This document shows positions 3,001 to 6,000 of a stretch of 15,515 bases of DNA, one piece after another (position 1 is the stretch's first letter; each line of letters starts with the position of its first letter). A program made the position numbers. Origin of the DNA: a virus (Duplodnaviria; Heunggongvirae; Uroviricota; Caudoviricetes); the IMG/VR virus record IMGVR_UViG_2703718872_000005; one strand, 5' to 3'.

Positions 3001-6000
3001 CATATTTGCCGCCCGTGCCCGTAAATCCGCCGGTCGCAAAATGAAAGTTCGCCGCAGCGGCCTGAATGGCTGTACCGCCTGACGCGGATGCGCCGCCACC
3101 AACAGCCCCGCCAATGGCGCTGCCGATACTCCCGACAATCCCCACCATTGCCTGCTTAAGCAGAATTTCTGTCATCATGGACAGCACGGAACGGGTGAAG
3201 CTGCGCCAGTTCTGCTCACTGCCGGTCAGCATCGCCGCCATATTCTGTGCAATACCATCAAAGGTCTGCGTGGCTGCACTTTTTACCTGCGACATACTGT
3301 CCGTGGCGCTCTCTTCCCACTCACTCCAGCCGGACTTCAGGCCTGCCATCCAGTTCCCGCGAAGCTGGTCTTCAGCCGCCCAGGTCTTTTTCTGCTCTGA
3401 CATGACGTTATTCAGCGCCAGCGGATTATCGCCATACTGTTCCTTCAGGCGCTGTTCCGTGGCTTCCCGTTCTGCCTGCCGGTCAGTCAGCCCCCGGCTT
3501 TTCGCATCCATGGCGGCCCGTTTTGCCCGTTGCTGCTGTGCGAATTTATCCGCCTGCTGCGCCAGCGCGTTCAGGCGCTCCTGATACGTAACCTTGTCGC
3601 CAAGTGCAGCCAGCTGGCGTTTGTACTCCAGCGTCTCATCTTTATGCGCCAGCAGGGATTTCTCCTGTGCAGACAGCTAGCGACGTTGCGCCGCCTCCTC
3701 CAGTACCGCGAACTGACTCTCCGCCTTCCACAAATCCCGGCGCTGCTGGCTGATTTTCTCATTTGCTCCGGCATGCTTCTCCAGCGTCCGGAGTTCTGCC
3801 TGAAGCGTCAGCAGGGCAGCATGAGCACTGTCTTCCTGACGATCGCCCGCAGACACCTTCACGCCGGACTGTTTCGGCTTTTTCAGCGTCGCTTCATAAT
3901 CCTTTTTCGCCGCCGCCATCAGCGTGTTGTAATCCGCCTGCAGGATTTTCCCGTCTTTCAGTGCCTTGTTCAGTTCTTCCTGACGGGCGGTATATTTCTC
4001 CAGCGGCGTCTGCAGCCGTTCGTAAGCCTTCTGCGCCTCTTCGGTATATTTCAGCCGTGACGCTTCGGTATCGCTCTGCTGCTGCGCATTTTTGTCCTGT
4101 TGAGTCTGCTGCTCAGCCTTCTTTCGGGCGGCTTCAAGCGCAAGACGGGCCTTTTCACGATCATCCCAGTAACGCGCCCGCGCTTCATCGTTAACAAAAT
4201 AATCATCCTTGCGCAGATTCCAGATGTCGTCTGCTTTCTTAAACGCAGCCTCTGCCTTAATCAGCATCTCCTGCGCGGTATCAGGACGACCAATATCCAG
4301 CACCGCATCCCACATGGATTTGAATGCCCGCGCAGTCCTGTCTGCCCAGGTCTCCAGCGTGCCCATGTTCTCTTTCAGGCGGCGGGTCTGGTCATCAAAC
4401 CCTTTCGTGGCGGCCTCGTTCGCCGCCTGCAATGCCCCGGCTTCATCGCCGGAACGCTGCAACTGAGCAACATACGCAATCTGCTCTGCCGTCACGTTAC
4501 GGAACTGGCGTGCCATCGCAATCAGCCCCGACGTCGGGTCGGTGGTCAGTTTTCCGAAAGCCTCTGCAACCTTGTCCACCTCCACACCGGAGGCAGACGC
4601 AAAACGCGCCACACTCTGGTTAATGGCATCAAACTGTTCACCACCACGCACACCGGCACTGACCAGGGCTGCCAGTGACTCTCCCGCCTGGTTAAACGTC
4701 AGCCCTGCCGCCTGCCCGGCTCTGGAGAGCGTCAGCATGCGCTCTGCCGTCAGTCCTGACTGATTACCGGAAAGAACCAGGGTTTTATTAAACGCTGAAA
4801 GCGTGGAATCCCCCTGGTACCAGGCGTACGCCAGCGCACCGGTCGCCACCGCCAGCGAGGTGACCCCGACCATCGGCAGGCTGATCGCACCGGCAAGCCC
4901 CCGGAACATGGGGATCATCCCGCCGAATGAGTCCTTCACCTGACCGCCCTGTTGCAGCAGGATGAGCCAGGGATTCTGACCACCGGCAAGCTGCGTGGCC
5001 ACGTCGGTGAACTGCATGGGTAGCATACGCATGGCCGCTTTATACTGCCCGACGGACATCCCGGCTTTTTGTGCAGCCAGGGCCTGACGGCTCAGCCCCT
5101 GTTCAACGGCAGCGGCCTGTTTCTTAAAAGACTGGCTGACACGCCCGGCCATCAAATCCGCAAGGTCACTGGTTTCACCCAGTTCTTTCTTTACCCGTGC
5201 AGCCTCTTCAGAAAAACGGGTTGAATCCAGTGTAAGAACAGCTGTCAGATCGGCAAAATTACCCGCCATAGCGTACACCTCCTGCAATTCCCTCAGACAC
5301 CATCATCAGCATGGCTTCATCCTCTGTGCTGCTCCGCATGTCATCACTGACCGTAACGATTTCCTTCCCGTCAGCCCCAAAGCGGACAGCACCAGAAAGT
5401 CCTGCCGCTTTCCGCATCAGCATATCGTCCTCATCCGGCCTCTCCGTCTGCGCTTCCTCACGCCGGGGGACAAGCAGACTGAAATCCGAGGGATGCATAT
5501 CCGGATCGCAAAAAAACAGGCTGAGTACGGCGTACGTCAGCCCGGAAAAATGCATATCCAGCTGAGTATCGTGAAAATAATGCGTGCGGTAAAAACGGTG
5601 CCAGTCGGCATATTCGGTGGATGTCATCCCGGCAAGCATGGCGCGCCAGTCGGGTCTCCCCATCTCACGCGCCAGTCTGAGGGCAAAGTTCAGCTCGCCG
5701 TCGAAGACTTTCCCGCAGAAAAATCATCATCAGTCAGCGCGTTATTTTTCGCCACTTCAGTAATATCAGTATCCGGACGAACAGCTTCGATCATCCCGGA
5801 CAGGCACAACACAACGTCTTCCGCCCGGGCAATGGCATCGGCAGGCCAGGTGGTGAGCACTTCCTGCTCTATCTTCATCACGGCCTCATTCATTGACGGT
5901 GACGCCGTTTTCTGTGGATGGTTATGCCACAGGGACATCGCCACCAGAAACGCCCCGGTTCTGACAAGGTCCTCCACGCTCACCTGCAGGTTACCGCTGG

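What the first reader, a model, noticed from the sequence alone, without database searches (positions are those of the whole stretch)
5708..5714. Conserved G-T programmed -1 frameshift site (GGGAAAG)
The slippery heptamer G GGA AAG is present 8 codons before the G stop, and the -1 frame continues into the T homolog (GKVFDGELNFALRLAREMGRPDWRAML...). This is the well-known tail assembly chaperone frameshift of lambda and many dsDNA tailed phages. Its integrity suggests the tail chaperone system was functional until recently.
Basis: partly seen in the sequence, partly recalled or inferred. Interest (0 to 1): 0.4.

Follow-up and report, generated by a model that had tools for sequence, protein, structure and literature searches.

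The report
Lambda-type G-T tail chaperone frameshift site
This is the well-known programmed -1 ribosomal frameshift that makes the G and G-T tail assembly chaperones of lambda-like phages, here intact in an E. coli-type prophage whose tape-measure gene is broken, so it is an ordinary, already understood feature.

Summary
GGGAAAG lies at 5714..5708 on the minus strand, phased G_GGA_AAG in gene G (6121..5690, 143 aa). Its first G is in codon 136, eight codons before the stop. The -1 frame is open for 149 more codons, to TAA at 5261..5259, and reads VFDGELNFALRLAREMGRPDWRAML.

The 287-aa fusion hits Pfam gpG (2e-49) and gpT (4e-14) and is 73% identical and collinear with lambda gpGT, with an identical SAGKVFDGEL junction. 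G-T sits between the major tail gene V and the tape-measure gene H, as in lambda. Both frames are under purifying selection (dN/dS 0.23 and 0.19 against lambda).

In 61 of 62 related loci from other genomes, an in-frame N_NNA_AAR site occupies the same position. The lambda heptamer is the minority form (5 loci); G_GAA_AAG dominates (47).

Two additions:
- **Damaged surroundings:** H carries an amber codon (CAG to TAG, codon 531) and gene I has a 1-nt homopolymer deletion.
- **Possible 3' stem-loop:** it starts 7 nt after the heptamer and has one perfectly covarying pair within the lambda/N15/phi80 clade. It is absent in more distant relatives, and published work judged a hairpin at this site insignificant.

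The parts
5690..6121 (-). Gene G, the 0-frame tail assembly chaperone: 143 aa, ATG at 6121, TGA at 5692..5690.
   Evidence: Translation. Pfam PF06894 at 2.1e-49, 167 bits. 100% identical to WP_000479069.1 'phage tail assembly chaperone G' of E. coli 2018-166.
5708..5714 (-). Slippery heptamer G_GGA_AAG. Base 5708 is read twice in the frameshifted product.
   Evidence: Same heptamer, phase and distance to the stop (7 codons from GGA) as lambda record position 10109.
5690..5723 (-). The stretch where the 0 frame and the -1 frame are both open. A shift must occur here to join G to T.
   Evidence: the -1 frame opens 31 nt upstream of the G stop, and the heptamer is the only X_XXY_YYZ site in phase there.
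5259..5708 (-). T segment in the -1 frame: 149 codons plus TAA at 5261..5259. It is expressed only as the C-terminal part of the 287-aa G-T fusion, join(6121..5708, 5708..5259) on the minus strand.
   Evidence: Pfam PF06223 at 3.7e-14. dN/dS is 0.19 against lambda in this frame. Residues E143, F146, L150, A151, R152 and E153, invariant in a 7-sequence alignment, lie upstream of the first in-frame ATG.
5630..5700 (-). Candidate 3' RNA stem-loop, unproven. Outer helix 5700..5693 pairs with 5637..5630, and inner hairpin 5674..5639. It starts 7 nt after the heptamer.
   Evidence: Fold of -44 kcal/mol with z = -3.05. Consensus fold. Within the clade, pair 16-84 is A-U in 18 sequences, G-C in 12, and broken in 0. 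Not kept in distant relatives. A published scan rated the hairpin of this cluster no more structured than average.
6141..6890 (-). Major tail tube gene V, the upstream neighbour. Its product is the partner of the T domain.
   Evidence: Pfam PF16461 at 1e-67 plus Big_2. 100% identical to the L002 protein.
2876..5269 (-). Tape-measure gene H, the downstream neighbour and client of G. It is interrupted by an amber codon at 3679..3677 (codon 531) and by a run of N at 2923..2951.
   Evidence: Pfam TMP_2 and Tape_meas_lam_C fall on two separate ORFs. Lambda has CAG where the window and L002 have TAG. PGAP marks the L002 copy as a pseudogene, 'internal stop'.

Best explanation
This is the lambda-type G/G-T programmed -1 ribosomal frameshift.

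Most ribosomes translating G (6121..5690) stop at TGA and make the 143-aa chaperone gpG. A few percent slip back one base on G_GGA_AAG (5714..5708). At that point tRNA-Gly is in the P site and tRNA-Lys (mnm5s2UUU) is in the A site, and they re-pair to GGG_AAA. Those ribosomes read on in the -1 frame to 5259 and make a 287-aa G-T fusion.

In lambda, the G parts bind the tape-measure protein H and the T part recruits the tail tube protein V. A roughly 30:1 G:GT ratio is needed for tail assembly, and neither protein is in the virion.

Shown here: the site, its phase, the open -1 frame, homology of both halves, synteny, purifying selection in both frames, and conservation of an A_AAR-type shift site at the same place across relatives.

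Inferred from lambda, not measured here: that shifting actually occurs, its efficiency, and the protein partners.
For: - **Site and phase:**
- **Homology:** PF06894 at 2e-49 and PF06223 at 4e-14, both well above their gathering cutoffs. 73% identity and a collinear alignment to lambda gpGT, with the junction SAGKVFDGEL identical.
- **Synteny:** Z-U-V-G-T-H-M-L, as in lambda.
- **Viable relatives:** window 5397-6123 (G plus the front two thirds of T) is 96% identical in DNA to plaque-forming phages PhiR12_1 to PhiR12_5. Phage 21 and Gifsy-1 records annotate the same arrangement as a frameshift product.
- **No room for another route:** the -1 frame opens only 31 nt before the G stop.
- **Selection:** dN/dS is 0.23 for G and 0.19 for T against lambda.
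- **Conservation:** 15 of 15 phage loci and 61 of 62 genome loci carry an in-phase N_NNA_AAR motif within 7 codons of the G stop.
- **Literature:** lambda uses GGGAAAG at about 4% (the 0 frame is kept about 96% of the time), with a 30:1 ratio, G binding H and T binding V (PMC3296357; PMC5009743). A_AAG is the most shift-prone tetramer in E. coli, and G_GGA_AAG is highly shift-prone (PMC4066793; PMC5009743).
Against: There is no expression data for this locus. In a reporter, GGGAAAG alone gave only 0.28% shifting (PMC4066793 Table S3). The lambda-like level may therefore need a stimulator that has not been identified. In this genome the product may be useless, because H carries an amber codon and I is frameshifted.
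Confidence: 0.95

Rival explanations
1. T is a separate gene translated from its own start, the ATG at 5663. RefSeq/PGAP annotates it this way in the closest genome: 134 aa, 'phage tail assembly protein T'.
For: PGAP lists G and T as two independent CDS in NZ_CP075632, and several phage records do the same. An ORF of 134 aa runs from ATG 5663 to 5259.
Against: The residues just upstream of that ATG (E143, F146, L150, A151, R152, E153 of the fusion) are invariant in a 7-sequence alignment, so they are translated. In most relatives the corresponding codon is TTC/TTT (Phe), not ATG. No Shine-Dalgarno sequence lies at a usable distance: the sequence is GCGCGTGAG directly abutting the ATG. Curated records for phage 21 and Gifsy-1 annotate a joined frameshift product.
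Confidence: 0.03
2. The G/T frame break is an accidental indel or sequencing error in a decaying prophage, splitting what was a single gene. It is not a programmed signal.
For: The same window does contain real or apparent lesions: an amber codon in H, a 1-nt homopolymer deletion in I, and runs of N.
Against: The same -1 offset at the same position is present in lambda, in plaque-forming phages, and in 61 of 62 loci from many genera. The G stop lies seven codons or fewer after the start of the motif in all of them.
Confidence: 0.01
3. The frame change is made by RNA polymerase slippage on the A run, not by the ribosome.
For: Transcriptional slippage gives frameshifted products in other bacterial genes, for example those of type III secretion systems (PMC5009743).
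Against: The run is only A3 here and A4 in most relatives. That is well below the long homopolymer tracts on which polymerase slippage is known to occur (general knowledge, not tested here). Lambda frameshifting responds to tRNA-Lys U34 thiolation, which is a ribosomal property (PMC3296357).
Confidence: 0.01
4. The signal is intact, but in this genome it serves nothing. The prophage cannot build tails, so G and G-T are relics kept only because too little time has passed for them to decay.
For: H has CAG changed to TAG at codon 531, shared with five complete STEC genomes at 99% identity and marked as a pseudogene there. Gene I has a G5-to-G4 deletion that shifts its frame. G is 100% and T 99.3% identical to those relatives, so there has been no time for divergence.
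Against: The I lesion sits in a homopolymer and could be an assembly error. The window has N gaps, and its left 2 kb best matches a different prophage of the same strains, so the assembly is not fully reliable. An amber codon that replaces Gln could be read through in a glutamine-inserting suppressor (supE-type) host (general knowledge). Other co-resident lambdoid prophages could supply or use tail parts: the median is 3 related loci per genome.
Confidence: 0.5

Closest known systems
Bacteriophage lambda G / G-T (Levin, Hendrix & Casjens 1993; Xu, Hendrix & Duda 2004, 2013, 2014)
   Same: Identical heptamer G_GGA_AAG, identical phase and identical distance to the G stop. The junction SAGK|VFDGEL is identical. 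The same Pfam families are hit and the same V-G-T-H order is found. The fusion is 73% identical overall.
   Different: The last 25 or so residues of G before the junction are unrelated and 3 residues longer. The T C-terminus and H N-terminus (about 5125-5397) form a divergent mosaic segment. The head genes are not lambda-like: there is a ClpP-protease/capsid fusion. H is an amber pseudogene here.
G-T modules of STEC lambdoid prophages and Stx phages, and phages PhiR12_1 to PhiR12_5
   Same: G is 94-100% identical in protein, with the same heptamer and the same 143-aa G.
   Different: The last third of T differs from PhiR12 (DNA homology ends at window 5397). RefSeq annotation does not join G and T.
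N15 / HK225 / phi80 / cdtI / Gifsy-1 type G-T modules
   Same: Homologous G and T, the same -1 architecture, and an A_AAG A-site codon at the same place.
   Different: They use the non-canonical G_GAA_AAG, or A_AAA_AAG in some Stx phages. In cdtI and Gifsy-1 the site is 1 sense codon rather than 5 before the stop. G is 33-50% identical.
-1 frameshift signals with a 3' stimulatory structure (IS911, IS3, dnaX)
   Same: A_AAG-type A-site slip on E. coli tRNA-Lys. A predicted helix starts 7 nt after the heptamer, which falls within the 3-9 nt spacers listed for other clusters in Table S8 of PMC4066793.
   Different: No structure has been shown to act here. It is not conserved outside one clade, and no upstream SD-like element was found (Sharma Table S4 'N/Y').

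Membership tests
Lambda-type G/G-T tail assembly chaperone with programmed -1 frameshift | Two overlapping ORFs located between the major tail protein gene and the tape-measure gene. | tested here: met
   V is at 6890..6141, G at 6121..5690, T runs to 5259, and H starts at 5269.
Lambda-type G/G-T tail assembly chaperone with programmed -1 frameshift | The upstream ORF is a gpG homolog. | tested here: met
   PF06894 at 167 bits against a cutoff of 27, covering profile positions 1-119 of 126.
Lambda-type G/G-T tail assembly chaperone with programmed -1 frameshift | The downstream ORF is in the -1 frame relative to G and is a gpT homolog. | tested here: met
   PF06223 at 53.3 bits against a cutoff of 25.9. 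The alignment to lambda T is collinear.
Lambda-type G/G-T tail assembly chaperone with programmed -1 frameshift | A slippery X_XXY_YYZ heptamer in the 0-frame phase within the overlap, close to the G stop. | tested here: met
   G_GGA_AAG at 5714..5708 is the only such site in the 31-nt overlap.
Lambda-type G/G-T tail assembly chaperone with programmed -1 frameshift | The T segment has no translation start of its own; conserved residues precede any start codon. | tested here: met
   Invariant residues 143-153 lie upstream of the first ATG. That ATG is Phe in most relatives, and no SD is present. Absence of initiation itself was not measured.
Lambda-type G/G-T tail assembly chaperone with programmed -1 frameshift | The shift site and architecture are conserved among relatives, and both frames are under purifying selection. 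| tested here: met
   61 of 62 genome loci and 15 of 15 phage loci carry the site. dN/dS is 0.09-0.23 for G and 0.19-0.43 for T.
Lambda-type G/G-T tail assembly chaperone with programmed -1 frameshift | The G-T fusion is actually produced at a low fixed ratio (about 1:30) and is required for tail assembly. | not testable with these tools
   Known for lambda only (PMC5009743 and PMC3296357).
-1 frameshift signal with a 3' stimulatory RNA structure | A stable structure starts 5-9 nt after the heptamer and is more stable than shuffled sequence. | tested here: met
   The spacer is 7 nt and the fold is -44 kcal/mol with z = -3.05. In the lambda/N15/phi80-like clade z is mostly -3 to -5.5.
-1 frameshift signal with a 3' stimulatory RNA structure | The structure is maintained by compensatory changes across relatives. 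| tested here: inconclusive
   Pair 16-84 is A-U in 18 sequences, G-C in 12, and broken in 0 within the clade. However, the count of pairs with double changes is not above shuffles (368 of 500). Only 75% of cells are paired in the wider set, and z is near 0 in distant clades. The region also encodes the most conserved T motif. Sharma 2014 gives ddG/nt of 0.020, below their threshold of 0.09.
-1 frameshift signal with a 3' stimulatory RNA structure | Disrupting the structure lowers frameshifting. | not testable with these tools
   This requires a reporter assay.

The most novel reading that the evidence does not exclude
The long-range stem-loop at 5700..5630 may be a real 3' stimulator. It has an outer helix 7 nt after the heptamer that encloses the GGCGCG...CGCGCC hairpin. 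It would be specific to the lambda/N15/phi80 clade and would raise shifting from the roughly 0.3% the heptamer gives alone in a reporter to the roughly 4% seen for lambda. It is written into the codons of the most conserved T motif (LAREMGRPDWRAML), so the protein motif and the RNA signal would constrain each other.
Probability: 0.2. Interest if true: 0.35.

Novelty: already known. Interest (0 to 1): 0.08.

Why it matters
It matters little as a discovery. This is a textbook recoding signal found in one more prophage.

It has practical value for annotation. RefSeq/PGAP still lists G and a truncated 'T' as separate genes in the closest genomes, so the true 287-aa product is missing from protein databases.

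The comparative survey gives one useful reminder. Among species-representative Enterobacterales genomes the canonical lambda heptamer is the minority form (5 of 61 loci). The non-canonical G_GAA_AAG is the usual one (47 of 61), and predictors that require X_XXY_YYZ will miss it.

Tried and rejected
- **Motif count:** the heptamer count in the window is not significant on its own. The argument rests on phase and context.
- **Rfam:** no family matches anywhere in the window.
- **PDB sequence search:** no solved relative of the G-T fusion was found.
- **Conserved 3' RNA structure:** it looked good on 11 sequences. It weakened on 49 independent sequences: 75% of cells paired, and pair-count measures not above shuffles. 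Per-sequence z-scores are near 0 in distant clades. I therefore keep it only as a clade-limited possibility.
- **Primary papers:** I tried to read Xu 2013, but it is not held. I did not look up Levin 1993. My recollection that Levin et al. found no simple downstream structure requirement is unverified.
- **Source genome:** the E. albertii locus L016 (96% protein match) is only 86% identical in DNA over the G-T region, so it is not the source of the window. The source genome was not identified.
- **Gene I:** the apparent split was first seen against a diverged copy. I rechecked it against a 99.7% identical copy, where it reduces to a single G5-to-G4 change.

Full report
**What is in the window.** The window carries the late (head and tail) region of a lambdoid prophage on the minus strand. 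The order is terminase, portal, ClpP-protease/capsid fusion, head-tail joining genes, then Z, U, V, G, T, H, M, L, K, I. The closest complete genomes are Shiga-toxin-producing E. coli strains at 99.1% identity.

**Check of the observation.**
- GGGAAAG is at 5714..5708 on the minus strand.
- Gene G starts at ATG 6121 and ends at TGA 5692..5690, giving 143 aa.
- The heptamer starts at offset 2 from the ATG, so it is phased G_GGA_AAG. Its first G belongs to codon 136, eight codons before the stop.
- From base 5708 the -1 frame reads VFDGELNFALRLAREMGRPDWRAML... and remains open for 149 codons to TAA at 5261..5259.

All statements of the finding are therefore correct.

The motif by itself is not unusual: there are 4 copies against 2.6 expected. 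What is improbable is the context. It is the only in-phase X_XXY_YYZ site within the 31 nt where both frames are open, and it sits at the position homologous to lambda's site.

**What it is.**
- The conceptual fusion of 287 aa hits Pfam Phage_TAC_2 (gpG) at 2e-49 and Phage_tail_T at 4e-14, both well above the curated cutoffs.
- It aligns end to end with lambda gpGT at 73% identity, and the junction SAGK|VFDGEL is identical.
- The stretch of G just before the junction is unrelated to lambda's. The DNA TCTGCGGGAAAGT nevertheless survives in a locally diverged background.
- The neighbours are the major tail gene V (PF16461, 1e-67) upstream and the tape-measure gene H downstream, as in lambda.
- G is 100% identical to RefSeq WP_000479069.1, 'phage tail assembly chaperone G'.
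- Window 5397-6123 (G plus the front two thirds of T) is 96% identical in DNA to phages PhiR12_1 to PhiR12_5, whose records name laboratory E. coli strains (K-12 MG1655, C) as host.
- Nei-Gojobori estimates show purifying selection in both frames: against lambda, dN/dS is 0.23 for G and 0.19 for the -1-frame T.

**Comparative evidence.** I examined 15 phage loci spanning 33-98% identity in G. All have the same -1 architecture and an in-phase site ending in A_AAG, either five sense codons or one sense codon before the G stop. The sites are:
- G_GGA_AAG in lambda, phage 21, PhiR12, PhiR42 and some Stx2a phages.
- A_AAA_AAG in Stx2_12E129 and 1720a-02.
- G_GAA_AAG in HK225, phi80, mEp043, PhiR47_1, cdtI and Gifsy-1.

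A scan of species-representative genomes returned 80 loci from Escherichia, Enterobacter, Citrobacter, Kluyvera, Kosakonia, Phytobacter, Proteus, Morganella, Providencia, Pantoea, Edwardsiella and others. Of the 62 I analysed, 61 have an in-phase N_NNA_AAR site inside the overlap, within 7 codons of the G stop:

| Site | Loci |
|---|---|
| GGAAAAG | 47 |
| GGGAAAG | 5 |
| AGAAAAG | 3 |
| GGTAAAG | 3 |
| GGCAAAA | 2 |
| GGGAAAA | 1 |

The one exception has G truncated at codon 29.

Residues 143-153 of the fusion are invariant in a 7-sequence alignment and lie upstream of the first ATG of the T frame. In most relatives that ATG is a Phe codon. The T frame must therefore be entered from G. This argues against the separate 134-aa 'T' that PGAP annotates from ATG 5663.

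**Mechanism.** This part rests on established knowledge of lambda, not on tests here. About 4% of ribosomes slip -1 on G_GGA_AAG. The resulting roughly 30:1 gpG:gpGT ratio is needed for tail assembly. The G parts bind the tape-measure protein, the T part binds the tail tube protein, and neither protein ends up in the virion (PMC5009743; PMC3296357). Shifting depends on tRNA-Lys U34 thiolation. A_AAG is the most shift-prone tetramer in E. coli (PMC4066793).

**A possible 3' stimulator.**
- *For:* The RNA after the heptamer folds well, at -44 kcal/mol with z = -3.05. An outer helix starts 7 nt after the site and encloses a GGCGCG...CGCGCC hairpin. In 30 sequences of the lambda/N15/phi80-like clade, 87% of cells are paired, and pair 16-84 switches between A-U (18 sequences) and G-C (12) without a single break. 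Per-sequence z-scores there are mostly -3 to -5.5.
- *Against:* On 49 independent and more diverse sequences only 75% of cells pair, and the pair-count measures do not exceed shuffles. Distant clades have z near 0. The region also encodes the most conserved T motif. Sharma et al. 2014 scanned this same gpG cluster and found a hairpin in 51% of members, with a 7-nt spacer and a local stability excess of 0.020 kcal/mol/nt, below their 0.09 threshold.
- *Open point:* Their reporter gave 0.28% shifting for GGGAAAG alone and 3.8% with the IS911 stimulator. That leaves room for a stimulator in lambda-like phages.

I regard this as unresolved and not new.

**State of the prophage.**
- H has an in-frame TAG at 3679..3677 (codon 531) where lambda has CAG. 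The same stop is present in the closest complete genome, where PGAP marks H as a pseudogene.
- Gene I has a G5-to-G4 change near 1063 that shifts its frame relative to a 99.7% identical intact copy.
- The window has two runs of N, at 1999-2039 and 2923-2951. They stand in for about 203 and 227 bases of the relatives.
- The 2 kb to the left of the first gap matches a different prophage locus of the same strains at 99.7-99.8%, against 95% for the locus that matches the rest of the window.

The assembly around the gaps is therefore doubtful. The G-T genes are intact, but the tail pathway they serve is probably not functional in this genome.

**Verdict.** The finding is right in both observation and interpretation. 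It is a further copy of a known, well-characterised recoding signal, so it scores low on interest and novelty.

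Noticed in passing
window 3677-3679 (minus strand, codon 531 of H): The tape-measure gene H carries an amber codon, TAG where lambda has CAG: a single C-to-T change. The closest complete STEC genome examined (NZ_CP075632) carries the same TAG, and PGAP marks H as a pseudogene there.
   Followed up: yes
window 1999-2039 and 2923-2951: Two runs of N (41 and 29 bases) replace about 203 and 227 bases present in relatives. They create apparent truncations of L and of the H C-terminus.
   Followed up: partly
window 1-1998 versus 2040-15515: The left 2 kb (I, K and the I-J spacer) is 99.7-99.8% identical to a different prophage locus of the same STEC genomes (NZ_CP075632 at 1.107 Mb) than the rest of the window (2.644 Mb; 95% identity for this part). 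The window may be a chimeric scaffold or a recombinant prophage.
   Followed up: partly
window about 1060-1066 (minus strand, gene I, 1259..678): A G5-to-G4 homopolymer difference relative to an intact 99.7% identical copy shifts the frame of tail gene I after ...LAGAG. It could be a real lesion or a sequencing error.
   Followed up: yes
window 53-447 versus 293-672: A diverged direct duplication (about 240-nt offset, 68% identity) lies between gene I and the start of J. It is absent from locus L002, where this spacer is about 390 bases shorter.
   Followed up: no
L002 8146-8550 and 8577-9008 (NZ_CP075632); also L001, L006, L008: RefSeq/PGAP and several phage records annotate G and a start-truncated 'T' as separate genes with no ribosomal slippage, so the true G-T fusion protein is missing from those protein sets.
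   Followed up: partly
loci L036-L095: In this family the non-canonical G_GAA_AAG is by far the commonest shift site, in 47 of 61 loci. AGAAAAG, GGTAAAG, GGCAAAA and GGGAAAA also occur. Predictors that require X_XXY_YYZ would miss most of them.
   Followed up: partly
loci L018-L024 and L026-L035: Contigs with the same G-T match as lambda itself, where coverage is stated only about 1-10x, turn up in assemblies of unrelated organisms (Neobacillus, Oceanobacillus, Kitasatospora, Shewanella, Leeuwenhoekiella, Chromatium and others). This looks like lambda DNA contamination of sequencing libraries.
   Followed up: no
window about 5125-5397: The last third of T and the first 50 or so codons of H form a mosaic segment with no megablast match to PhiR12 or lambda, while the flanks match at 91-96%. 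dN/dS of T rises to 0.4 against PhiR12.
   Followed up: no
L096 6418-7572 (NZ_CP075632): A porin OmpC gene is inserted between tail genes L and M of the sister prophage. It looks like a cargo gene ('moron') inside the tail operon.
   Followed up: no
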